Virus record (IMG/VR): IMGVR_UViG_3300030330_006019
Coordinates: 1-64,000 of that record
Source: a virus
Taxonomy: Duplodnaviria; Caudoviricetes
DNA length: 64,000 nt
Direction: 5' to 3' (one strand)
Positions within the stretch are counted from its first letter, which is position 1. Each line of letters starts with the position of its first letter. The notes below the pieces were generated by a model that did no database searches, was not told the origin of the DNA, and saw only the letters and a program-made list of their open reading frames with translations. Below, in pieces: positions 1 through 9,290 of this stretch. The position numbers and the translations under genes are program-made.

Positions 1-50
1 TAATGTCCTTTAATTTTATATTTTTAAGTACTTTCATATTTTATAATTTG

Positions 51-124
51 TGAACCAGGAAGGATTCGAACCTTCGACCTACAGCTTAGAAGGCTGTTGC
101 TCTATCCAGCTGAGCTACTGGTCC
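51..124 (-). tRNA. tRNA-Arg (anticodon UCU)
   Basis: Reverse complement GGACCAGTAGCTCAGCTGGATAGAGCAACAGCCTTCTAAGCTGTAGGTCGAAGGTTCGAATCCTTCCTGGTTCA folds into a cloverleaf with anticodon loop CTTCTAA and T-loop GTTCGAA; no encoded CCA. Confidence 0.96.
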
Positions 125-152
125 AGCTCCCGGCCGCCGCACCACCACACCT

Positions 153-178
153 GCGAAGTCTCACATGCGATGCGGCAC
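153..178. repeat. Left copy of GC-rich imperfect inverted repeat (partner 6839-6865)
   Basis: Reverse complement gtgccgcatcgcatgtgagacttcgc aligns to 6839-6865 gtgcgacatcgcatgtgcgaacttcgc at 23/27 positions. Confidence 0.75.
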
Positions 179-181
179 CCA

Positions 182-343
182 TTACAATTCCTTTAAGAAG
201 TGATACAACCACACTACCAGACATATTGGCCATGCAAGGACCATTAACGTCCGCATAGGCCAGTCAATGTTGATTCTCAATGGATGGTTGATGAGTTCCA
301 TAGTGAATGTAAATATAATTCCTATAAGTAAATAATTAATCAT
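182..343 (-). CDS. Small membrane protein (53 aa, below the ORF-track cutoff)
   Basis: Manual translation MINYLLIGIIFTFTMELINHPLRINIDWPMRTLMVLAWPICLVVWLYHFLKEL; two hydrophobic segments. Confidence 0.65.
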   Translation of the reverse strand: MINYLLIGIIFTFTMELINHPLRINIDWPMRTLMVLAWPICLVVWLYHFLKEL

Positions 344-352
344 AATTGTGTT

Positions 353-634
353 TTAATAATATATACATAAATTGTCATTACACAAATCACTACCTGTAAA
401 ATAGAGTTGGTTGACATTGTGTCCGTTGTGGTTGGGGTCAAAGTTTACAGCATCCCAGTCACAGCATACCTCTTCAAATTCAATTTGGCGTTCACAACTA
501 GTAAACACAACAAGTAATAGTATTGACATTAAACCTGCTCCACTACAATTGTGTATAGCAGCTTTTATTTTTTCCTGTTCAATCCATACCCAGTAGGCAT
601 GCCATGATTTGATTTTATTGATTATTGTTTTCAT
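353..634 (-). CDS. Hypothetical, possible lipoprotein with one degenerate CxD..NFDP..C repeat
   Basis: LLLVVFTSC lipobox-like segment followed by CCDWDAVNFDP...CNDNLCIY; true start may be internal. Confidence 0.5.
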   Translation of the reverse strand: MKTIINKIKSWHAYWVWIEQEKIKAAIHNCSGAGLMSILLLVVFTSCERQIEFEEVCCDWDAVNFDPNHNGHNVNQLYFTGSDLCNDNLCIYY

Positions 635-639
635 ATGTT

Positions 640-1191
640 TTATTTATATATTCGACTATTACGCCAGTTACGAAATGCAAATTCGATTTCAGGGTCTATT
701 GATTCCTGCATGCTCTTAATCTCAACAACTGGTTCTGGGAACATGGTTGCAAGTATCTCCATAATGCGTCGGCGTTGTATGCCACTTATTTGTTTGTTGG
801 CCAAAGCCTTTTCGACATGTGCAGTAGCACGGTCACGACAATCCATCTCCATCCAATCAATGGCAACCTCAAGGACACGCTCTAGGTCACTATGAGTATA
901 CTCACGAATAGGTTTGATATTGCGAGGAGTAGTGGATAGTGTAGTCTTGTCAGTTGACGACTTGCCACCACGAAGGCCACGCATAATACCATAACCACTA
1001 CGTGCAGCCAACTTGTTGATTCGCCTAGCAGTTTCCTTGTCGGTTATTTGAATAGTATTACCGGTTTTGTGATATGTAATATCGACACAGGCAACAGCCT
1101 CCTCGGTACTACAATCAACACATACATTATAGCCAAGACTAACCCGACCAGCAGGAATAGTGCACTGACATGATTTACAGATAGCTGACAT
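640..1191 (-). CDS. TraR/DksA-like C4 zinc-finger protein
   Basis: N-terminal CKSCQCTIPAGR...CVDC matches the CxxC-x-IP-x-R...CxxC pattern. Confidence 0.6.
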   Translation of the reverse strand: MSAICKSCQCTIPAGRVSLGYNVCVDCSTEEAVACVDITYHKTGNTIQITDKETARRINKLAARSGYGIMRGLRGGKSSTDKTTLSTTPRNIKPIREYTHSDLERVLEVAIDWMEMDCRDRATAHVEKALANKQISGIQRRRIMEILATMFPEPVVEIKSMQESIDPEIEFAFRNWRNSRIYK

Positions 1192-1218
1192 AATCTAGTT
1201 TGTTTTTTATTTGATAAT

Positions 1219-1274
1219 TAAATATAACCATAATAGTTGGGAAATAAAAATTATTGATGAAAAAGTTATTAACA
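1219..1274 (-). promoter_or_regulatory. Class-1 promoter (TTCCCAA..GTTATATTTA) with upstream TGTTAATAACTT box
   Basis: Same composite motif recurs upstream of genes at 3986, 5358, 5629, 12141 and 12685; TATATTTR resembles the Bacteroidota -7 box TAnnTTTG. Confidence 0.7.
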
Positions 1275-1721
1275 ATTTACACCACTATAACCCAGAGCAT
1301 GTGTATGGTATCGGTATAGACCATCCTGTCCTTTACGGATATATTCGTAATCACCATTGCCTATCAGTCTACGCCTTGGTGTCATTAGGCTACGATAGTG
1401 TCCACTACTGAAACTACCACCACGGTGATTGACTGGATGGTATTCCATGTTGCTAAACAGGTAGTGGTATTCCATACTCATTTCAGTCCATGTACAGGGT
1501 CCAGTTTGTTTCACAAAATCGAGCAGAGCTCGAATTATACCGCCATTCTTAAAGTAGAATCCTTGTGGTACCTGTTGTCCCTTGGCACTATATTCCTGTT
1601 CGATACTTTCTATCCTTGTCTGATATGGATAGTTATCGGATGTACCTTTTGCCTCTACATAATCTCTAAACCACTTTGGTGCTCGAGGGTCATGTGTTTG
1701 TTTTTCAATGTTGTCTTTCAT
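1269..1721 (-). CDS. Hypothetical protein
   Basis: 150-aa ORF, co-oriented, AT-rich leader. Confidence 0.7.
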   Translation of the reverse strand: MKDNIEKQTHDPRAPKWFRDYVEAKGTSDNYPYQTRIESIEQEYSAKGQQVPQGFYFKNGGIIRALLDFVKQTGPCTWTEMSMEYHYLFSNMEYHPVNHRGGSFSSGHYRSLMTPRRRLIGNGDYEYIRKGQDGLYRYHTHALGYSGVNC

Positions 1722-1807
1722 ATTATCTATATTTAATTGGTTTTATACTTTTATAGTGTTAAACACTCTTCTACTACTATCACTTATATACAAGAAAAAT
1801 TGGGCTC

Positions 1808-1939
1808 CTGTACAAAGACGGACTAATGCTTAATGCTACACACACATATCTTGCTGTTAACAAGAAATAGTCCGACTGCATTCACTTGCAGATTTTTGTG
1901 TGTTATAGACAGCCACAAGGCCTGTAATAGACCTGTGGC
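1808..1939 (-). ncRNA. Candidate pseudoknotted structured RNA plus adjacent hairpin
   Basis: Stems 1819-1825/1868-1874, 1840-1846/1897-1903 (crossing), 1849-1853/1861-1865, 1876-1880/1887-1891, and hairpin 1912-1939, in an intergenic gap. Confidence 0.45.
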
Positions 1940-1955
1940 ATTGTCCTGTGGTCCT

Positions 1956-3962
1956 CTATTTGGCTAGGAACATTTTATTTAGAGTCCCGGCTAGTTGAGT
2001 TAGGTTGTTGGTGTCTATACTAGCGCTAGAGCGGCCATACATAGCCTTAAATTGACTACTAACGTCGCTACCACCATCTATATAGTAGCTCAGTACCTCT
2101 ATACCACCACTACGCATGTTTTTCACTTGTTTTGCAGTGTGAGTTGCAGCATCATTTCCCCAATAAGCAATTTCACGATTCTCAAAATAAGGTTCTCCGT
2201 CTGATAGGTTAATGAAGTAGCTGTCCATACTACCATTGCTCTCGACCATGTGCTTTTGAATAGCCTCAAAACATAGACCCTCTGGTGTAGTCCCGAGATT
2301 GACACAATATTTGAATAGAGATTTGATAGTTACTATCTTGTCTTTTCTAGAGTCATATGCTATTACGATAGCCGGCGTAGACATACCACCACTCTCTACT
2401 GTAGTTCTGAAACTTATCTGAACGTTGAGGTTACCAACCATGCTAGCTGCTTTAGCTATAGCCACGCAGGTAGTCATTGCTTTTCTGTATCTAGAACCAC
2501 TCATACTACCACTAGCATCTACCGAGATATGTACATTGGCATCATTATGGCTAGTAGTAAATACCTGACTAAATACACTCTCAGCACCATAGCCTAACGA
2601 GCTAATCAATCTTTTATCTATCTTACCTGTATTTAATCGTGTATATTTAAGGCTGTTCTCCTCGTTTCTAACCTGTAGCTTTCTACCAAGTTTTTGACCC
2701 AATACAAGGCCTTGGTCTACAGCATGTTGCCACGCATCACATCTATTATAGTAGTGGTTCTCTGTAAGAAACAAGTCAAATGGATTTTCGTCAATTAGAG
2801 TCTTACTAATACCATTAATAACAATACAGTTAGTACCAGTACCAGTTTCTCGCCAGTTCTTAGAGATACCATTACCAACATTAGTAACCTGTACATCTCC
2901 TTGCTGAATAGCATTTAATGAACTAGCATCTTTCTTACTCATTCCACCTTTTTTAATATCACCCTTTTGGAAACTCTTTTGCTTTTCAATAGCTTTCTTT
3001 AACTGTTGTTTTTGTTTGTCAGTTAAATCCTCTAGGTCAATAGTTGATGTGGTATTACCATTAGTACAATCAGAACCAGTTGTAGTAGAACCATCGTCAT
3101 TAGATTGTCCTTCTGGTGTTTGAGGAGTACCGCCATCTCTATTATTACTTTCTTGTCCATTACCATTACACTCACCTTCACATTCGTTATCCTCTGGTTT
3201 TGGAGCTTCAATATTGCTTTCTATTACTCGGTATATCTCGCACGCAATAGCAAAGGCTTCTTGAGTATCCTTTACATTACCGATATTCTTTAGGTCCATG
3301 ATATTCCATATCTTTCTTAGACCAGGTAATGCGTTGAGGTCTCTATGACTATTAGTAATGTTACAGATACGGAACATATAAGCTTCAAAGGTAGGCATTC
3401 TAAATTCAGAACTAACCAATCCTTTGTCTATAATTTTAGAGTTAAAGTATTTGTCATACATTGAGTGGTAGTAACCTTTATAACCAGGAGCAGATTTGAA
3501 TACATAGTTATCAATACGTCTGTCCTCGACAATGTTTAACAAATCTTTTAGATTTTTTAGTATATGCCAATTAGCAGAAGACCTGTCGTAATCATACTTA
3601 ATCATTACTGTATTTATAATATCCTCTGGAATAGACTCTCCTATCTTCTGTAGGAATTCAAAATCAGATAACAATATGTGGCTACCTTCGTGAAGAGCAA
3701 GTCCAACAGCAGGGTCGAAATCCTTGTCCTTTAGACTCGAGCTAATTACAATTGACTTACCATCAGTGTAGCTATTACCATTAGTTTTGAATTTAACGGG
3801 AACGTGTTTACCTGTTACAATGTTAACAAAGTTAGCGATTGCTCGTTGGTAACCAGCTAGCTTGATGAGGTCCTTACCAGGTTTCTTAGTTGATTCACCT
3901 GTCAGAATGTCAATGTCATTGTCATAATTGTCATTTAACCAAAAGCTTGAATAATTTGTCAT
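1956..3962 (-). CDS. VWA-domain protein with N-terminal HExxH metallopeptidase-like domain (CobT-like partner of AAA+ ATPase)
   Basis: HEGSH and EDRRID in the N-terminal part, acidic Gly/Asn linker, MIDAS DASGSMS...GTTPE...LSDGEP at the C-terminus. Confidence 0.88.
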   Translation of the reverse strand: MTNYSSFWLNDNYDNDIDILTGESTKKPGKDLIKLAGYQRAIANFVNIVTGKHVPVKFKTNGNSYTDGKSIVISSSLKDKDFDPAVGLALHEGSHILLSDFEFLQKIGESIPEDIINTVMIKYDYDRSSANWHILKNLKDLLNIVEDRRIDNYVFKSAPGYKGYYHSMYDKYFNSKIIDKGLVSSEFRMPTFEAYMFRICNITNSHRDLNALPGLRKIWNIMDLKNIGNVKDTQEAFAIACEIYRVIESNIEAPKPEDNECEGECNGNGQESNNRDGGTPQTPEGQSNDDGSTTTGSDCTNGNTTSTIDLEDLTDKQKQQLKKAIEKQKSFQKGDIKKGGMSKKDASSLNAIQQGDVQVTNVGNGISKNWRETGTGTNCIVINGISKTLIDENPFDLFLTENHYYNRCDAWQHAVDQGLVLGQKLGRKLQVRNEENSLKYTRLNTGKIDKRLISSLGYGAESVFSQVFTTSHNDANVHISVDASGSMSGSRYRKAMTTCVAIAKAASMVGNLNVQISFRTTVESGGMSTPAIVIAYDSRKDKIVTIKSLFKYCVNLGTTPEGLCFEAIQKHMVESNGSMDSYFINLSDGEPYFENREIAYWGNDAATHTAKQVKNMRSGGIEVLSYYIDGGSDVSSQFKAMYGRSSASIDTNNLTQLAGTLNKMFLAK

Positions 3963-3985
3963 AGTTTAATCATTTATTTATAATA

Positions 3986-4062
3986 TAAATATAACTAGAA
4001 TAATTGGGAAATAAAAATTTTTTCACTATTATTTTAGAAAGTTATTAACATAGTTATTAACA
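3986..4062 (-). promoter_or_regulatory. Class-1 promoter with two TGTTAATAAC boxes
   Basis: taaatataactagaataattgggaa at 3986-4010; aagttattaaca 4039-4050 and agttattaaca 4052-4062. Confidence 0.7.
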
Positions 4063-4107
4063 ACCTAACTCCACCCCAAGCAATAAAGCCAGGGCAGAGA
4101 GGTTGTT
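4059..4107 (-). terminator. Long G.U-rich hairpin after the AAA+ gene (terminator or stabilising stem)
   Basis: aacaacct/aggttgtt outer stem with inner ctc/gag and tgccct/ggggtg pairs on the minus strand; no clear U-tract. Confidence 0.45.
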
Positions 4108-4118
4108 CCAGTCGCTTA

Positions 4119-5324
4119 TTACTGGTTATCGTTATCGGCACCATCAACATCTTCAGTATTGAAGAGGTCTTCATCAGTACCATCGTCGCAAAACTTTTGA
4201 ACAAGTTGCTTAACGAAGGTTCTTTCGCTATCAGCTCCACCCGCATCATCGTATTGTGGATACATAATAACCTCAGCAGCTTCTGTTAAACTAAACCCGT
4301 CGTAAACAAGGCTAGTCATTTCAACACAAGCTCTGGTAGAAATACTTGTAGAGATTCTCGCTACTTCACTCTTAACCTCAACACGGGTAGCATGAGCGAT
4401 TTCAGAAATGGCATTAACAGTATTGGAATCTACATTTGGAAATAGTTTTGTTAACAAAGCAAATTCCTCAGATGCATTTAGAGTATCCATCTCTACAATA
4501 ATGAAACGGTCCAGTAACGCTCTGTCCATAACACGTGTAGCTGTATACTCATTACCAATATTAGCCGTAGCAATAAATGTAACTCCTGGAGCAACCTTAA
4601 TAGTTGGACTACCATCAGCCTCATCTAATCTCAAGTATCTCTGACCTTCGTCAAGAACTGTCATAAGAATATTCCAAGCCTCAGGGTGAGCTCTTGAAAG
4701 CTCGTCCATTAGTATAACGGCATTCTCAGTTTGTATGGCTTTCACAAACATTGATTCTGAGAAGAACGTACCACTCTCTTTATTGAAGTGTACATTACCA
4801 ATTAAGGTAGCTCTAGGATCTTGAGTTGCCCCGAGGTTGAAATAAAACTCTGGTCTGTCTAATGCGTTGACAACAGTTTTAGCTGCCATAGTTTTACCGC
4901 ATCCTGCAGGACCAGTCATCATAATGTTTTTACCTCTCATTGCAGACCTAACAAGATATTTCCATTTAAGGTCTTGCATCTTAAGAGTATCTGGTTTTAA
5001 CTCAGGAGATTTCTGAATGAATGCCATTACCTCAGCTTGTTCAGCAGGTACATTAGCAGCAGGTTTATTCAACCACTGGCCATTCAATACAGACGTGGCA
5101 TCTTTAGTCCAATCCTTTTCAGTACTACTATTAGATACTGAGTAGGACATGGCTCCGCCCTCCTTCATTATTACTTTTACGAAGGCTTCTTTTTTAACGG
5201 CCCACGTTAATTTTTGTTTGTTGGCTTTTTCATTTACAGGACATTCATATTGATTGCCAACCTTGTCCGTTAGTACTGGCTTACCACTCTCGTTGATTCC
5301 AGCTTTTAAGATTACATTTTTCAT
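4119..5324 (-). CDS. MoxR/CbbQ/CobS-type AAA+ ATPase
   Basis: Walker A GPAGCGKT, Walker B ILMDE, ATAN sensor, DRALLDRF arginine finger; adjacent to the VWA gene. Confidence 0.92.
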   Translation of the reverse strand: MKNVILKAGINESGKPVLTDKVGNQYECPVNEKANKQKLTWAVKKEAFVKVIMKEGGAMSYSVSNSSTEKDWTKDATSVLNGQWLNKPAANVPAEQAEVMAFIQKSPELKPDTLKMQDLKWKYLVRSAMRGKNIMMTGPAGCGKTMAAKTVVNALDRPEFYFNLGATQDPRATLIGNVHFNKESGTFFSESMFVKAIQTENAVILMDELSRAHPEAWNILMTVLDEGQRYLRLDEADGSPTIKVAPGVTFIATANIGNEYTATRVMDRALLDRFIIVEMDTLNASEEFALLTKLFPNVDSNTVNAISEIAHATRVEVKSEVARISTSISTRACVEMTSLVYDGFSLTEAAEVIMYPQYDDAGGADSERTFVKQLVQKFCDDGTDEDLFNTEDVDGADNDNQ

Positions 5325-5357
5325 AAGCGACTATTTATTGTTGTTTTTATTTATATA

Positions 5358-5435
5358 TAAATATAACTATTAATATTGGGTTTTGTGCTATAACTTATCG
5401 TAAAGTTATTAACAATAATATCAAAGTTATTAACA
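5358..5435 (-). promoter_or_regulatory. Class-1 promoter with two TGTTAATAACTT boxes
   Basis: taaatataac 5358-5367, ttggg 5376-5380, aagttattaaca 5403-5414 and 5424-5435. Confidence 0.7.
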
Positions 5436-5597
5436 TTTTGTAGACAGTTGATCCTCAAGCAATACATAACCAGGATACATATCCAAGGCTTTTGTTTTAG
5501 CGTTGCTGTAGTGAGTTGCTTCCACAGTACAGACCTTTGCAGAGTCTATAGATGGACAGTAAAGATAAACGTCATAAAGATTTTCTAAGTGATTCAT
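5430..5597 (-). CDS. Hypothetical protein (55 aa; start moved to MNHLENL)
   Basis: The ORF-track N-terminus overlaps the promoter at 5629-5660, so the ATG at 5597 is more plausible. Confidence 0.6.
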   Translation of the reverse strand: MNHLENLYDVYLYCPSIDSAKVCTVEATHYSNAKTKALDMYPGYVLLEDQLSTKC

Positions 5598-5628
5598 AGT
5601 ATTATATTTTTTAACCATTATTATACTA

Positions 5629-5660
5629 TAAATATAACTAGAATAATTGGGAAAAAAAAA
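5629..5660 (-). promoter_or_regulatory. Class-1 promoter
   Basis: taaatataactagaataattgggaa, identical to the copy at 3986-4010. Confidence 0.7.
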
Positions 5661-5679
5661 TATTTTCACAACTTTTTTC

Positions 5680-5946
5680 CATGACAATGTGGCACGACCA
5701 GTGGCAAATTTGACATACCATCTATCACTCTTATCGTGAGTCTAGCCATGCCGGATAGTCTAGCTAACGATTACTTTGCCACACTTGTGTCGTGCTCATG
5801 AGTATCATCCAGACTGCCAGAAATGCGCTCCTTCCTAGTCACACTCATGGTTTTTTCAGCCATTTGATTCTCTTGAGCTTCACTATCACTTTGACTAGAG
5901 GATACCATTGCATCTCCTGCCATATCTACCGGTATTGACACAGGAG
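5680..5946 (-). ncRNA. Candidate multi-stem structured RNA overlapping the 3' tail of the KTSC-like ORF
   Basis: Stems 5692-5698/5789-5795, 5701-5708/5775-5782, 5680-5684/5796-5800, 5835-5841/5892-5898, 5914-5919/5941-5946; locally GC-richer. Confidence 0.4.
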
Positions 5947-6181
5947 TCCAGTTGGGATGGCTCTCACAACTCCATCGGCACGGCATTATGTGTCTGTAAT
6001 AGTAATGTAATGCATCGTCTGCTTCACACCACTGTGTCCATCTATCGGGATGTACTCCATGAAACCGGTATATCATGCCTTCCTCGTATACTACTCGTAT
6101 TTCTAGCTTGTTCCAATCGTATGTCGCTACACACCAATCCTGTATTGTTAGTTCTGTATATCTATCAGGATTTGTTGGCAT
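5771..6181 (-). CDS. KTSC-domain-like protein
   Basis: YDWNKLEIRVVYEEGMIYRFHGVHPDRW...YYYRHI fits the KTSC pattern; the C-terminal ~55 aa look like non-conserved tail. Confidence 0.55.
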   Translation of the reverse strand: MPTNPDRYTELTIQDWCVATYDWNKLEIRVVYEEGMIYRFHGVHPDRWTQWCEADDALHYYYRHIMPCRWSCESHPNWTPVSIPVDMAGDAMVSSSQSDSEAQENQMAEKTMSVTRKERISGSLDDTHEHDTSVAK

Positions 6182-6398
6182 TTTGTTTACCCTGTTGTAG
6201 GAGTTGCTGAAGTGTTTCTTGTTTGCCTAACGCATCATCTATATCTGATAGCAACTTATCGCATTCTGCAACTATATCAGGATGCTCTCCTATTGCTGCT
6301 GGGTTATTCAAATAATTCGACAAATTCGCAATTGCTTTCTTTTTCTTTGCCTCATACATTGTATTCAACGCATCCATTATTTCATTAGTTAATTCCAT
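6165..6398 (-). CDS. Conserved small phage protein
   Basis: ANLSNYLNNPAAIGEHPDI motif, recalled from marine T4-like phage hypotheticals; coiled coil. Confidence 0.7.
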   Translation of the reverse strand: MELTNEIMDALNTMYEAKKKKAIANLSNYLNNPAAIGEHPDIVAECDKLLSDIDDALGKQETLQQLLQQGKQNANKS

Positions 6399-6594
6399 TG
6401 TCTTCTCCGTTTGTTATATAATCAATAAAACATGTCAGGTCCTTCCTAACACTAGTTGTTACTTCTCTCCATTCTTCTTTTATCCCACTCTTCAATATCT
6501 GGTCGACTTCCAACATCAGGACTTTCATCCAAGGTTCAATGTCATGATTTGTTGTCGCTAGTCTTTGGTCTTTTTTTGCCATTTTGCTTTGCAT
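6385..6594 (-). CDS. Hypothetical protein
   Basis: Co-oriented, overlaps neighbours in an operon-like chain. Confidence 0.55.
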   Translation of the reverse strand: MQSKMAKKDQRLATTNHDIEPWMKVLMLEVDQILKSGIKEEWREVTTSVRKDLTCFIDYITNGEDNGIN

Positions 6595-6763
6595 CGTGTT
6601 TCTTCTTTACTTTGTCAAGTGCATAACTCCATCTGTCCCGTGTGTCACGATATCGATGTTTGTCTTGCATATCCATTTTTTTGAGTTGAGCGTCAAACTG
6701 TTTTCTTATTCCCAAATCTTCTATTTCTTTTGTTATGTCCCACCAAAAATCTTCCCATGCCAT
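6542..6763 (-). CDS. Hypothetical protein
   Basis: AAGGAG SD 9 nt upstream of ATG. Confidence 0.7.
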   Translation of the reverse strand: MAWEDFWWDITKEIEDLGIRKQFDAQLKKMDMQDKHRYRDTRDRWSYALDKVKKKHDAKQNGKKRPKTSDNKS

Positions 6764-6838
6764 ATTATATTACTCCTTTATATAGCCTTGTAAAGTTGTT
6801 GATAACTTGTAAAGGCAACTTTCTGGTTAGGGTTTGAT

Positions 6839-6880
6839 GTGCGACATCGCATGTGCGAACTTCGCCGGGCCGGGCGGGGG
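6839..6880. repeat. Right copy of GC-rich inverted repeat followed by a G-tract
   Basis: gtgcgacatcgcatgtgcgaacttcgc with internal dyad tcgca-tg-tgcga, then cgggccgggcggggg. Confidence 0.75.
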
Positions 6881-7192
6881 TCAGCCGCACCTGTCATCAA
6901 ATCCATCATTGTTACTACTCTTCTGATTGACCTTTAAGTACTTCTTTCCTAACTCTCGTATTTCATATCTGAATCCTTGATTAGTATTGAAGTTCATTAT
7001 TTCTACAAATTCTTTTGCAGATTTTTCTGTATCAAATTCAAGCGGATCACCATGAGAATCTAACATTAATACTGGTAAATTCTTTTTCTTTCCAACTTCA
7101 TTTGTTGTTGGATTGTAATGCCACTTAATTATAATATAAAACCTGTCTTTTCTACTCATACGTCCAACACAAATAGTATTTCTGTCCATCAT
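6881..7192 (-). CDS. Hypothetical protein
   Basis: Co-oriented ORF with phage-like composition. Confidence 0.65.
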   Translation of the reverse strand: MMDRNTICVGRMSRKDRFYIIIKWHYNPTTNEVGKKKNLPVLMLDSHGDPLEFDTEKSAKEFVEIMNFNTNQGFRYEIRELGKKYLKVNQKSSNNDGFDDRCG

Positions 7193-7457
7193 TTATTAAA
7201 TGTGTTGGTACACAATCCCAGTGTTCAAAGTTTCCAACATTGTAACTATTGACAGCAGTATCTTTATTCTTTACTAACATAAAGTTATTTGCATTCCTAT
7301 ACATTTTTCTAAAAGGTATACCGGTTTGCTTTACATCTCTACATAATACAACTGACTTGATAAACCATAGAAAGTATTCCTTATCATACCACTTTATATC
7401 ATCCATCTTAAAATCACTAGCCAGTTGATTCAAATCAATCTTATTAATATCCATCAC
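7152..7457 (-). CDS. Hypothetical protein
   Basis: Co-oriented; start overlaps the stop of the upstream small ORF. Confidence 0.65.
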   Translation of the reverse strand: MMDINKIDLNQLASDFKMDDIKWYDKEYFLWFIKSVVLCRDVKQTGIPFRKMYRNANNFMLVKNKDTAVNSYNVGNFEHWDCVPTHLINDGQKYYLCWTYE

Positions 7458-7603
7458 TTTTCTTTTTTATCAAAATCTTCCAAGTTTTTCATAAACTTTT
7501 TATGTTGAATTCTACTATCAATCCATGAACTTATCTGAGTAGTTACATACATTCCTAATGCAAAACAACCTACTCCAAATAAAATTATTGCTATTGTTTC
7601 CAT
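7454..7603 (-). CDS. Small membrane protein (49 aa, not in ORF track)
   Basis: Manual translation METIAIILFGVGCFALGMYVTTQISSWIDSRIQHKKFMKNLEDFDKKEK; fills the gap. Confidence 0.6.
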   Translation of the reverse strand: METIAIILFGVGCFALGMYVTTQISSWIDSRIQHKKFMKNLEDFDKKEK

Positions 7604-7606
7604 ATT

Positions 7607-7996
7607 TTACTTCTTTCCTTTTTCTAAATAATTTTGCCATAGTCCTGCAAATACAAACATTGCAGTAAAACTACCAAACATATACAATATAAACCAAGGT
7701 GTGTAAGTCATATCACCATTGATAACAACTGGTATTGCCATTACTAACATCCACACCAAAAAGAATATTAATGGATTCTTTTCCATTTTCTTTTCTATCT
7801 TGACAGTTCTTTCAATGTTCATTAGTCTGGATAACGCATCTTGCATATCTGTACCATAAGCTGGTTGAGTATGTATGCTTCCATCTAATTCTTGTATTGT
7901 AATATTATACTTACAGTAACCTGGATTCTTTTTACTTTTTTCGACTATCTTACACTCGATAGCTCGTCTTCTCTGATATTTACTTTTCTTTGTCAT
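7607..7996 (-). CDS. Membrane protein (two C-terminal TM helices)
   Basis: Hydrophobic LIFFLVWMLVMAIPVVI and WFILYMFGSFTAMFVFAGLW. Confidence 0.75.
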   Translation of the reverse strand: MTKKSKYQRRRAIECKIVEKSKKNPGYCKYNITIQELDGSIHTQPAYGTDMQDALSRLMNIERTVKIEKKMEKNPLIFFLVWMLVMAIPVVINGDMTYTPWFILYMFGSFTAMFVFAGLWQNYLEKGKK

Positions 7997-8103
7997 TTTT
8001 ACTTATTAAATTATTATACATCCATAATTCTATTGGACTTAAACCTTCATGCCAATTATTAAAATCTTTAACAGTTAGATTTGACATTTCATTTTTTATT
8101 CTA

Positions 8104-8319
8104 TTATTCAGGCTTTGCATATACTTCCTCAATTCTACTTGCTCTTATTCCTCTAACTTCATAATCAAGTACAGTGCCTTCTTCTGTTAAAGCTCTTGTT
8201 AAAGTTGTCTCAGCATCAGTGATACTTACAGCTTCTACTAAAAATTCTTTGGTAAATTGTTTTGCACCTTTACGACTATCATCCGTAAACCTTACGTTTG
8301 CTACATAATACATTTTCAT
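8104..8319 (-). CDS. DUF4494-like protein (Bacteroidota family)
   Basis: EFLVEAVSITDAE...YEVRGIRASRIEEVY resembles DUF4494 YLVDAxSFTEAE...V..I....E; AAGGAG SD. Confidence 0.65.
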   Translation of the reverse strand: MKMYYVANVRFTDDSRKGAKQFTKEFLVEAVSITDAETTLTRALTEEGTVLDYEVRGIRASRIEEVYAKPE

Positions 8320-8321
8320 AA

Positions 8322-8849
8322 CTATTTCTCCTTATTTAATTTTATATAAAGTTTATTATTTCTAATATACATAACTCCTACAGGTACTTCTTTTAATTCT
8401 CTACCTTGTAAATCATATATTTTTTTATTACCTATGGCTTTAATTTCCAATTCTTCTATATTTGTTGGCACCATATTAATCAATACCCATGAAAAACTAT
8501 TCTGGTCAAATACTAACCAATCTTCTATATTACAGTATTCTACTGAACCATTTTCATAAATAGACACAGAATAAGATACTTTTATTGTGTCATGTACTGT
8601 AATCTGAGAAAAATAATAATACATACCTTGTCCTGAATAACACATACCATTTGGATAAGTACATACTCCCCAAATCACATCTATAGAATCTGGATTGTGT
8701 ACTATATTTGTTGTATCAAGTCCTATGTTAAATCCTTGACTTTGGTCTATCCAATATGTTATTGAGTCACAGCAAAAATATGGAACTGCCTGTTGTGCTT
8801 GTGTTTGTAGTCCAAGCGAGACTAGTACTGCTAATAAAACCTTTTTCAT
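8322..8849 (-). CDS. Secreted protein with short T9SS-type C-terminal sorting domain
   Basis: Sec signal MKKVLLAVLVSLGLQTQA; C-terminus T.IEE...KIYDLQGRE...G.MYI.NNKLYIK. Confidence 0.7.
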   Translation of the reverse strand: MKKVLLAVLVSLGLQTQAQQAVPYFCCDSITYWIDQSQGFNIGLDTTNIVHNPDSIDVIWGVCTYPNGMCYSGQGMYYYFSQITVHDTIKVSYSVSIYENGSVEYCNIEDWLVFDQNSFSWVLINMVPTNIEELEIKAIGNKKIYDLQGRELKEVPVGVMYIRNNKLYIKLNKEK

Positions 8850-8864
8850 TTCTTTTCTTCTTTT

Positions 8865-9236
8865 TTAATTATTTGAATGTTGATTTGCTTCATCATATAC
8901 TTCACCAGTATTTGATACATTATTATCAGTATACTCCCAGCTTTCTTTTCTTGGCATGTTTGATGTGTTACCTACAACATTTTTAACATCTATTCTTGAC
9001 TTCTTAATGTTTCTCTGTTCAATTCTATCCCAATGTTTTATAATTGTAATATTTTTCCATGCATTAAAAACATTATCACATAATGCAACATCTGGGTAAT
9101 GTCTTAATATACATCTTCCAAATCCATCCTCTACAGTAAACTTTCCATTTGGTCTAACTTTTGTTTCTGCATGAGGGAACATTCTTAGCACTGTTCTTTT
9201 GTATTTCTTAAACTGTTCGTATCGTCTTTCGTTCAT
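8865..9236 (-). CDS. Hypothetical protein
   Basis: ORF behind a promoter-like aatataac at ~9261. Confidence 0.7.
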   Translation of the reverse strand: MNERRYEQFKKYKRTVLRMFPHAETKVRPNGKFTVEDGFGRCILRHYPDVALCDNVFNAWKNITIIKHWDRIEQRNIKKSRIDVKNVVGNTSNMPRKESWEYTDNNVSNTGEVYDEANQHSNN

Positions 9237-9290
9237 AACTTTTATTCTAAATTTTTAATTAATATAACCATTTCAATTGATATAAAAAAA

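What the first reader, a model, noticed from the sequence alone, without database searches (positions are those of the whole stretch)
125..6880. A 6.7-kb promoter-dense segment bracketed by a GC-rich inverted repeat with outward G-tracts
Seen: 153-178 (reverse complement gtgccgcatcgcatgtgagacttcgc) and 6839-6865 (gtgcgacatcgcatgtgcgaacttcgc) match at 23/27 nt. Each copy is followed outward by a G-rich run (ggtgtggtggtgcggcggccggg; cgggccgggcggggg). These are the most GC-rich non-coding spots I noticed in this AT-rich window. The right copy contains a dyad (tcgca-tg-tgcga), the left abuts the tRNA 5' end, and the enclosed genes mostly have their own promoters. Inference: paired protein-binding sites delimiting an early or host-takeover module, acting as recombination (inversion) sites, DNA-entry or packaging signals, or an origin. 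No recombinase is visible in the window.
Basis: partly seen in the sequence, partly recalled or inferred. Interest (0 to 1): 0.7.

Follow-up and report, generated by a model that had tools for sequence, protein, structure and literature searches.

The report
Complementary GC-rich spacer pair in phage
Two short, very GC-rich non-coding sequences that are mirror-image copies of each other sit 6.7 kb apart in an AT-rich uncultured marine phage and are strictly conserved in its close relatives; they are real and probably work as a pair, but no test here shows how, and they are not a DNA flip-switch or a replication origin.

Summary
Sites 153-178 and 6839-6865 match 23/27 in inverted orientation, and looser pairing runs to about 45 of 55 positions. 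They are the only non-coding GC-rich islands in 105 kb here and in 171 kb of a sister contig. The cores are invariant in eight contigs of the same species cluster.

Both lie in transcribed spacers of the same gene strand. One starts at a stop codon; the other fills the gap between a stop codon and tRNA-Arg. As RNA the two are therefore complementary (about -70 kcal/mol).

- No serine or tyrosine recombinase, rve or Y1 transposase is present in either contig.
- No inverted or alternative arrangement appears in any assembly.
- There is no cluster of DnaA boxes.
- The enclosed block (CobS-like, CobT-like and small genes) has foreign-looking codon usage, but the GC3 change points lie 0.2-1 kb and 2 kb outside the repeats. 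The repeats are therefore not exact composition borders.

My favoured reading (about 0.3) is a long-range RNA stem that closes the block, like rRNA processing stems. The rivals are TIR-like DNA ends and separate protein-binding sites.

This scan already found the same pair on a sister genome (e1-5730396, e1-5730410).

The parts
125..181 (-). Left GC-rich element (L). Read on the - strand it is the core GTGCCGCATCGCATGTGAGACTTCGC (178->153) followed by a G-rich tail (152->125). It fills the spacer between the P0002 stop codon (182-184) and tRNA-Arg.
   Evidence: The core is invariant in 4 lineages. The tail has 4-6 substitutions and a 3-nt indel.
6832..6902 (+). Right GC-rich element (R). It has the core 6839-6865, a G-rich tail 6866-6895, and a 7-bp inverted repeat around it (TTTGATG 6832-6838 / CATCAAA 6896-6902). 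On the transcribed (-) strand it reads as a C-rich sequence that starts at the P0001 stop codon.
6780..6922 (.). Invariant block around R. It is nearly identical between the window and the sister contig, although the flanking proteins are only 81-82% identical.
6785..6816 (-). Hairpin between R and the P0003 ribosome-binding site. Two CTTTACAAG repeats flank one DnaA-like box (TTATCAACA).
50..124 (-). tRNA-Arg(TCT), directly 3' of L on the transcribed strand.
   Evidence: Rfam 73.2 bits
6881..7192 (-). P0001, 103 aa, unknown function. Its last codons and stop codon lie in R. Its 10-aa C-terminal extension is absent from homologues in more distant relatives.
6542..6763 (-). P0003, 73 aa, the first gene inside the pair. 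It has a strong AGGAG and no promoter motif of its own.
4119..5324 (-). CobS-like MoxR-type AAA+ ATPase.
   Evidence: AAA_5 1.8e-18; phrog_249 3e-32
1956..3962 (-). CobT-like protein with a VWA domain.
   Evidence: weak CobT_C; phrog_17276 1.6e-8
640..1191 (-). 183-aa phage protein that travels with CobS and CobT in 18 of 79 loci. There is only a weak lead to a DksA/TraR zinc finger.
5771..6181 (-). KTSC-domain protein.
182..343 (-). P0002, a 53-aa hydrophobic protein and the last gene inside the pair.
1206..1251 (-). Class-1 promoter repeat. Further copies lie at 3973-4018, 5347-5396 and 5616-5661 inside the segment, and at 9261, 12143, 12687, 15225 and 16095 outside it.

Best explanation
L and R are one functional pair that acts at the RNA level. 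Both lie in non-coding spacers of the same (-) transcription direction. The inverted DNA repeat therefore becomes two mutually complementary RNA segments on one polycistronic early transcript, or on overlapping transcripts.

The pairing would form a long stem of about 45 bp. That stem encloses every ORF from P0003 to P0002. It leaves P0001 just 5' of the stem and tRNA-Arg just 3' of it. This is the geometry of the processing stems that flank 16S and 23S rRNA.

Inferred consequences:
- Host RNase III, or another double-strand-specific step, cuts the stem.
- The cut detaches the block's mRNA from upstream read-through.
- The cut also frees the tRNA precursor.
- The block's mRNA ends may stay paired and so be protected.

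Shown: the pair, its uniqueness, its conservation, its position in same-sense spacers, and its pairing energy.

Inferred: co-transcription, actual pairing, cleavage and any effect on expression.

The GC-rich DNA itself probably entered by an insertion or duplication event, since such sequence is foreign to this genome.
For: - Position: both elements are intergenic on the coding strand, starting 0-3 nt from a stop codon, and L ends 1 nt before the tRNA.
- Pairing energy: the R(-) x L(-) duplex has 45 bp and -70.3 kcal/mol, against -46 +/- 4.8 for shuffles. In three other lineages it is -71 to -77 despite tail substitutions and an indel.
- Strand sense: the transcribed sense is 8-14 kcal/mol more stable than the opposite sense (6 G-U pairs against 1).
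- Geometry: the stem would enclose whole ORFs only.
- No DNA enzyme needed: no recombinase or transposase is available for a DNA-level reaction.
- Read-through: P0003 has no promoter motif, so R is read through from upstream. No convincing terminators lie between the elements.
- Conservation: the cores are invariant in 8 contigs whose genomes differ by 10-18%.
- DNA modification: an RNA role is untouched by the cytosine hypermodification that earlier notes infer for this phage (not tested here).
Against: - No RNA evidence: no RNA run holds the locus, and the RNA-type contigs laid did not cover the elements.
- Distance: 6.7 kb with four internal promoters is far beyond known mRNA examples.
- Core mismatches: two of the three substitutions are not wobble-compatible (C-C, A-G), and there is a bulge.
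- Tail substitutions: those in L keep the duplex no better than random ones (fractions 0.07, 0.30, 0.21), and G-run against C-run pairs in any register.
- Uneven conservation: the L tail evolves at about the neutral rate while the core is frozen. This fits a 26-nt recognition site better than a 55-nt stem.
- Excess conservation: the invariant R block (143 nt) is larger than pairing needs.
- Competing folds: each element also folds locally (-27 and -23 kcal/mol).
- No phage RNase III is encoded.
Confidence: 0.3

Rival explanations
1. DNA-level boundary repeats. L and R are terminal-inverted-repeat-like ends of a laterally acquired 6.7-kb block. The block would be a non-autonomous cassette moved or exchanged by an enzyme encoded elsewhere, or a relic of such an event.
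For: - Inverted orientation at the two ends of a gene block, with sequence (75-87% GC) foreign to a 32% GC genome.
- The block has the highest GC of any 6.66-kb window (37.7%; maximum elsewhere 36.0%). Total GC steps at the elements in the sister contig (0.30 / 0.375 / 0.32).
- GC3 of the block's ORFs is 0.31-0.38, against 0.18 +/- 0.03 for 86 other ORFs. Relatives' CobT has a native GC3 of 0.16-0.21.
- P0001 reads into R through a 10-aa extension that relatives lack, like an insertion scar.
- More distant relatives lack the elements and have other neighbours there.
Against: - No transposase or recombinase was found in the block by Pfam or PHROGs, and none of the four families searched is present in 80% of the sister genome.
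- There is no target-site duplication.
- There is no second genomic context and no empty site: 8 contigs are all collinear.
- GC3 change points lie outside the repeats, at 7844 in the window and at 123339 and 132248 in the sister contig. That is 0.2-1 kb beyond R and 2 kb beyond the tRNA.
- 'Inside' and 'outside' genes are neighbours in relatives, and almost every junction here is a synteny break.
- The best-conserved part is the inner core, not the termini.
- Promoters inside the block are the resident type.
- A relic would not stay invariant.
Confidence: 0.22
2. Two separate cis-sites that work independently of each other and of orientation. They could be binding sites for a phage or host protein (operator, roadblock or insulator), or REP-like structured spacers that protect mRNA 3' ends or guide processing next to the tRNA.
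For: - Only the 26-27-nt core is frozen, while the L tail drifts.
- R carries overlapping dyads at 7-nt spacing (TGCGA / TCGCA / TGCGA / TTCGC), typical of dimer sites.
- Both sit just after stop codons, where hairpins lie in related phages. GC-rich hairpins directly follow CobS in L004, L012, L029 and L066.
- L folds into a 16-bp hairpin of -27.5 kcal/mol.
- Position and GC-rich imperfect symmetry resemble REP elements (own knowledge).
Against: - No regulator has been identified.
- Folding z-scores are weak (-0.7 to -1.7).
- Modelling L(-) and R(+) as one RNA motif gives no covarying pair.
- The dyads are degenerate in L.
- There are only two copies and no other partial site in the window. 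No host repeat family exists.
- It does not explain why the two are inverted or why the tails stay complementary.
Confidence: 0.22
3. An invertible segment: the pair are crossover sites for a site-specific invertase.
For: Inverted repeats share an 11-nt identical core with a central TG in a dyad. The enclosed genes partly have their own promoters.
Against: - No PF00239 or PF00589 in either contig.
- Four assemblies span both sites, four span one site, and the contigs of three DNA runs were laid. All show one orientation and no strand-change joints.
- The enclosed genes are co-oriented with the whole 64-kb window.
Confidence: 0.03
4. A replication origin, packaging site or injection-stop signal.
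For: One DnaA-like box flanked by CTTTACAAG repeats lies next to R. An 18-mer of it recurs in an origin-like intergenic region of another marine phage contig, L258. The G-runs could favour R-loops (own knowledge).
Against: - A single box, no cluster, and no other boxes near L.
- Cumulative GC skew is monotonic through the region.
- There is no strand switch of genes.
- Contigs of several runs run through R.
Confidence: 0.05

Closest known systems
Long-range processing stems flanking 16S and 23S rRNA in bacterial rRNA operons (RNase III substrates; own knowledge of the established pathway)
   Same: Two complementary segments in the same transcript sense bracket a complete functional unit. A tRNA lies just outside the stem. 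The duplex is long and GC-rich.
   Different: Here the loop would be 6.7 kb of mRNA with internal promoters. No cleavage, co-transcription or covariation has been shown. The feature is confined to one phage species cluster.
Cassettes bounded by terminal inverted repeats (non-autonomous transposons, MITE-like elements)
   Same: Imperfect inverted repeats of about 27-55 bp lie at the two ends of a gene block with foreign-looking composition.
   Different: There is no transposase, no target duplication, no second insertion site and no empty site. The inner part is more conserved than the termini. The GC3 borders do not coincide with the repeats.
REP/BIME elements of enterobacteria
   Same: GC-rich, partly palindromic, extragenic elements inside operons just after stop codons, occurring in either orientation.
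   Different: There are two copies, not hundreds. No RAYT gene is present. Local folds are not better than shuffles. No related family exists in 185,579 species genomes.
PeSL promoter/stem-loop cassettes of T4-type phages (PMC2839356, PMC4122927)
   Same: Conserved non-coding units sit at gene borders in a hyperplastic early region whose gene order is shuffled among relatives. The class-1 promoter repeats here behave this way.
   Different: PeSLs are many direct repeats that contain a promoter. L and R are a single inverted pair without a promoter.
Hin/Gin/Cin-type invertible segments
   Same: Inverted repeats flank a segment of a few kb.
   Different: There is no invertase, no flipped form and no function that depends on orientation.

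Membership tests
Site-specific invertible segment (Hin/Gin/Cin, Bacteroides invertons) | Inverted repeats flank the segment | tested here: met
   23/27 core
Site-specific invertible segment (Hin/Gin/Cin, Bacteroides invertons) | A serine or tyrosine recombinase is encoded nearby or in the genome | tested here: not met
   PF00239 and PF00589 are absent from G000 (105 kb) and G006 (171 kb, 80% complete). Neighbouring ORFs have no such domain.
Site-specific invertible segment (Hin/Gin/Cin, Bacteroides invertons) | Both orientations are found in natural populations | tested here: not met
   All 8 contigs are collinear. There are no strand-change joints in 3 DNA runs. Contigs drop rare variants, so this is weak.
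TIR-bounded transposable cassette | Terminal inverted repeats | tested here: met
TIR-bounded transposable cassette | A transposase in the element or genome | tested here: not met
   Pfam and PHROGs on the enclosed ORFs. rve and Y1_Tnp are absent.
TIR-bounded transposable cassette | Target-site duplication | tested here: not met
   By eye, the flanks share no direct repeat at the ends of the alignable region.
TIR-bounded transposable cassette | Copies at other sites, or empty sites in relatives | tested here: not met
   Pattern scans of IMG/VR, JGI metagenomes and GTDB genomes find only the same locus in one backbone.
TIR-bounded transposable cassette | Composition borders coincide with the repeats | tested here: inconclusive
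   Total GC steps at the elements. GC3 change points lie 0.2-1 kb and 2 kb outside them.
rRNA-type long-range processing stem | Complementary segments in the same transcript sense bracket the unit | tested here: met
   45 bp, -70 to -77 kcal/mol in 4 lineages, against -46 +/- 4.8 for shuffles
rRNA-type long-range processing stem | Both segments lie on one transcript and are cut by RNase III | not testable with these tools
   No RNA holder is listed. The RNA-type contigs laid do not cover the elements.
rRNA-type long-range processing stem | Pairing is kept by compensatory change | tested here: inconclusive
   R is invariant. L tail changes do no better than random ones.
REP/BIME | A multi-copy family of extragenic GC-rich palindromes with a RAYT transposase | tested here: not met
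   Two copies only. No Y1_Tnp. No host family.
Replication origin | A cluster of initiator boxes or iterons with an AT-rich unwinding element and a skew inflection | tested here: not met
   One DnaA-like box. Skew is monotonic.
Known RNA families (Rfam 15) | A match to a covariance model | tested here: not met
   Only the tRNA matches, even at E up to 10.

The most novel reading that the evidence does not exclude
A dsDNA phage encloses a whole 6.7-kb, roughly 12-gene mRNA block in an rRNA-style long-range RNA stem of about 45 bp. Cutting the stem would insulate the block from upstream read-through, leave its two ends paired (a protected 'panhandle' mRNA) and release the adjacent tRNA-Arg precursor. 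This would be a processing logic so far known for rRNA, not for phage mRNA.
Probability: 0.2. Interest if true: 0.75.

Novelty: new variant of a known kind. Interest (0 to 1): 0.45.

Why it matters
If the pair works as a long-range RNA stem, it would extend rRNA-type operon processing to a multi-gene phage mRNA. It would also link expression of an auxiliary CobS/CobT-type module to maturation of a phage tRNA.

If instead it marks DNA ends of an exchanged block, it would be a rare case of a cassette with inverted-repeat borders inside a large lytic phage, and a handle on how auxiliary gene modules move between marine phages.

Either way the elements are short, unique and strictly conserved. That makes them easy targets for metatranscriptome end-mapping or, once a host is known, for mutation.

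Tried and rejected
- Rfam: at gathering score and at E up to 10, only the tRNA matches.
- Hammerhead or HDV-like ribozyme, checked by eye: the core nucleotides are missing, and L has no room for P4/P2 before the tRNA.
- L(-) and R(+) as one RNA motif: RNAalifold gives no covarying pair.
- Phage database similarity for both elements: only chance GC-rich hits.
- Host-derived repeat family: 0 strict hits and over 120 scattered single relaxed hits in species genomes.
- Other paired GC islands in 100 related loci, and inverted repeats genome-wide in G000, G006, G003 and G002: none like this.
- Donor search: the ORFan 1269-1721 exists only in the species cluster. No locus shares the block's synteny.
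- RNA evidence: no RNA holder is listed. X19 is guessed to be RNA and does not cover the elements.
- Weak joint 125->3973 (22 letters on the shorter side, one contig): not used.
- Small ORFs across the elements: 6778-6909 is 43 aa. A 26-aa frame through L shows 4 non-synonymous changes to 1 synonymous and runs into the tRNA, so it was rejected. The R ORF is left open.
- Chi-like reading of the outward G-runs (GGTGGTG in L): not shared by R and the host is unknown, so it was dropped.

Full report
WHAT THE WINDOW IS

The window is the first 64 kb of a 105,255-bp IMG/VR viral contig with 32% GC, estimated at 42% complete. Almost all genes in 1-9000 lie on the - strand. DNA runs that hold the stretch are marine metagenomes from several studies. 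No cultured phage is close; only the tRNA matches the phage collection.

A sister contig, G006 (IMGVR_UViG_3300030060_007423), is 170.8 kb and 80% complete. It is collinear with the window at 80-90% nucleotide identity.

THE OBSERVATION

They align at 23/27 with one gap.

- Each copy is followed outward by a G-rich run.
- Shuffling the two 60-nt islands never reached the observed local score (33 against 14.2 +/- 2.3; 0 of 5000).
- They are the only non-coding 30-mers of at least 70% GC in the whole contig and in the 171-kb sister contig. The single other island in each lies in a long open frame and is unrelated.
- With wobble pairs, the relation extends to about 45 pairs over about 55 nt.
- By a uniform-composition BLAST model the match alone would not be significant genome-wide: self-BLAST at E 0.05 reports nothing. 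The significance rests on its GC-rich composition, its uniqueness and its conservation.

ANATOMY ON THE TRANSCRIBED STRAND

- R: on the - strand, P0001 (7192-6881) ends with its last codons and stop inside R. R is followed by an invariant spacer with a hairpin (6785-6816) and then an AGGAG before P0003 (6763).
- L: L starts 3 nt after the stop of the small hydrophobic ORF P0002 (343-182). It ends 1 nt before tRNA-Arg(TCT) at 124-50.
- Enclosed genes: P0003, two small ORFs, a KTSC protein, an 85-aa ORF, a CobS-like AAA+ ATPase, a CobT-like VWA protein, a 150-aa ORFan, a 183-aa protein that travels with CobS/CobT in other phages, a 93-aa ORF and P0002.
- Promoters: the phage's own promoter motif occurs 13 times in the window against 0.29 expected. 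Four copies are inside the segment, five are in the next 9 kb and four are in the remaining 48 kb.

The segment is therefore part of a wider early-type region and is not uniquely promoter-dense. P0003 has no promoter motif of its own, so R is transcribed by read-through.

CONSERVATION AND DISTRIBUTION

Pattern scans found the elements only in this species cluster: the sister contig in IMG/VR and five further metagenome contigs (Tara and others). They are always at the same two loci and in the same relative orientation. Three assemblies besides the window's own contig carry both copies about 6.5 kb apart. No match exists in 185,579 species genomes. A relaxed pattern gives only scattered single hits.

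- Both cores are invariant in all copies.
- The R block 6780-6922 is nearly identical between window and sister contig, although P0001 and P0003 are only 81-82% identical as proteins.
- The L tail differs by 4-6 substitutions and a 3-nt indel among lineages.

More distant relatives carry P0001 homologues at 70-82% identity and P0003 homologues at 45-67%. They have no such element. Their P0001 ends about 10 residues earlier, and the neighbouring genes differ.

IS THE SEGMENT A FOREIGN BLOCK?

- Total GC: the segment has 37.7% GC, above every other 6.66-kb window (maximum 36.0%). In the sister contig total GC steps at the elements.
- GC3: the block's ORFs are at 0.31-0.38, against 0.18 +/- 0.03 (maximum 0.287) for 86 other ORFs. 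Relatives' CobT genes have a native GC3 of 0.16-0.21. The composition is therefore not a property of the genes.
- Change points: a change-point analysis of GC3 puts the borders at 7844 (support 7790-8137) in the window. In the sister contig they fall at 123339 (support 122958-123522) and at 132248 (support 132215-132462). That is 0.2-1 kb beyond R and 2 kb beyond the tRNA.
- Gene neighbours: in relatives such as L011 and L023, genes that are 'inside' here (CobT, P0003, CobS, the 183-aa protein) are neighbours of genes that are 'outside' here.

The repeats therefore lie within a broader, shuffled, compositionally odd region of 9-10 kb. They are not exactly at its edges.

DNA-LEVEL READINGS

- Enzymes: no Resolvase, Phage_integrase, rve or Y1_Tnp family is found in either contig. 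No such domain occurs in the ORFs inside or beside the segment.
- Arrangement: contigs of three DNA runs cover the region with no strand-change joints at the elements. Every assembly has one arrangement.
- Mobility marks: I saw no target-site duplication, no empty site and no second context.
- Origin: a single DnaA-like box between two CTTTACAAG repeats sits beside R, but there is no cluster and no skew inflection. An 18-mer of that hairpin recurs in a clearly origin-like intergenic region of another phage contig (L258). I record this as a lead only.

Inversion and origin are therefore poorly supported. A TIR-like origin of the sequences remains plausible, because sequence of 75-87% GC must have come from outside. 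As a present-day mechanism it lacks every enzyme and every footprint.

RNA-LEVEL READINGS

Rfam finds nothing. Local folds are unremarkable, with z-scores of -0.7 to -1.7. Treating L(-) and R(+) as one motif gives no covariation.

Both elements are transcribed in the same sense, so they are complementary RNAs.

- The duplex is -70.3 kcal/mol with 45 bp here, and -71 to -77 kcal/mol in three other lineages.
- Shuffles give -46 +/- 4.8, and the opposite sense gives -61 to -63.
- The stem would enclose all ORFs of the block and place the tRNA immediately outside it, as in rRNA operons.

Against this:
- The L tail substitutions keep the duplex no better than random ones.
- Two core mismatches are not wobble-compatible.
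- The distance and the internal promoters are unprecedented for an mRNA.
- No RNA data cover the sites.
- The phage encodes no RNase III, so a host enzyme would be needed.

VERDICT

The pair is real, unique, conserved and almost certainly functional. I rank the readings as follows.

| Reading | Confidence |
|---|---|
| Long-range or intermolecular RNA pairing | 0.30 |
| TIR-like DNA ends of an exchanged block | 0.22 |
| Independent protein-binding or REP-like sites | 0.22 |
| Origin, packaging or entry signal | 0.05 |
| Inversion | 0.03 |

The rest is left for a neutral relic or something unforeseen.

The RNA reading comes first because it alone uses the specific anatomy: same-sense spacers, stop-codon and tRNA adjacency, whole-ORF enclosure and GC-richness. 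It also needs no missing enzyme. It is not demonstrated.

The same pair was already reported by this scan on the sister genome, with these same two leading readings (e1-5730396, e1-5730410). My analysis reached them independently: the ideas are in my note. It adds the GC3 change points, the wider distribution scan, the enzyme searches and the substitution test.

Noticed in passing
L112 15367-15659 (sister contig G006, about 5 kb past tRNA-Arg): A permuted tmRNA gene (Rfam RF04321, 65.6 bits; ARAGORN tag GEQVEMAMAA*) in the sister phage. The window's contig ends before this point.
   Followed up: partly
window 1206-1251, 3973-4018, 5347-5396, 5616-5661, and 9261, 12143, 12687, 15225, 16095, 37670, 44916, 51284, 60141: A family of about 46-nt promoter repeats: 13 copies against 0.29 expected. 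Metagenome contigs show 'go-back' joints 4022/4035/5670 -> 1260 exactly at these repeats. This suggests PeSL-like gene shuffling at promoters among co-occurring relatives.
   Followed up: partly
window 6881-6922: P0001 carries a 10-residue C-terminal extension (SSNNDGFDDRCG end) that is absent from homologues in L096-L100. The extension is encoded by the invariant block and reads into the GC element.
   Followed up: partly
window 6778-6909 (-): A 43-aa ORF in another frame spans almost exactly the invariant R block. Its product is Arg/Pro-rich. Whether it is coding cannot be judged, because the block does not vary.
   Followed up: no
L258 2418-3151 (IMGVR_UViG_3300017727_001684): A 730-nt intergenic region between divergent genes in another marine phage contig. 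It holds two TTATCAACA boxes, a perfect TGTGGATAA box, many (C)TTTACAAG repeats and a G-run. It shares the 18-mer ACAAGTTATCAACAACTT with the hairpin beside R and looks like a replication origin.
   Followed up: partly
window 640-1191, 1956-3962, 4119-5324: The 183-aa protein co-occurs with the CobS-like and CobT-like genes in 18 of 79 phage loci, in varying order. It may be a third partner of this module. There is only a weak lead to a DksA/TraR zinc finger.
   Followed up: partly
L112 12331-12711, 13324-14322, 16496-16930: The sister contig encodes a SET-domain protein, a UvdE UV endonuclease and an Hsp20 just beyond the tRNA.
   Followed up: no
window 6881-7996; sister contig 130395-132341: 'Shoulder' genes outside the repeats also have raised GC3 (0.25-0.34 against a background of 0.18). 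The compositionally odd region is therefore 9-10 kb, wider than the repeat-bounded segment.
   Followed up: yes
G002 5287-5319 / 72635-72667: A 33-nt, 94% identical inverted pair with 48% GC, 67 kb apart, in a more distant relative. It was not examined.
   Followed up: no
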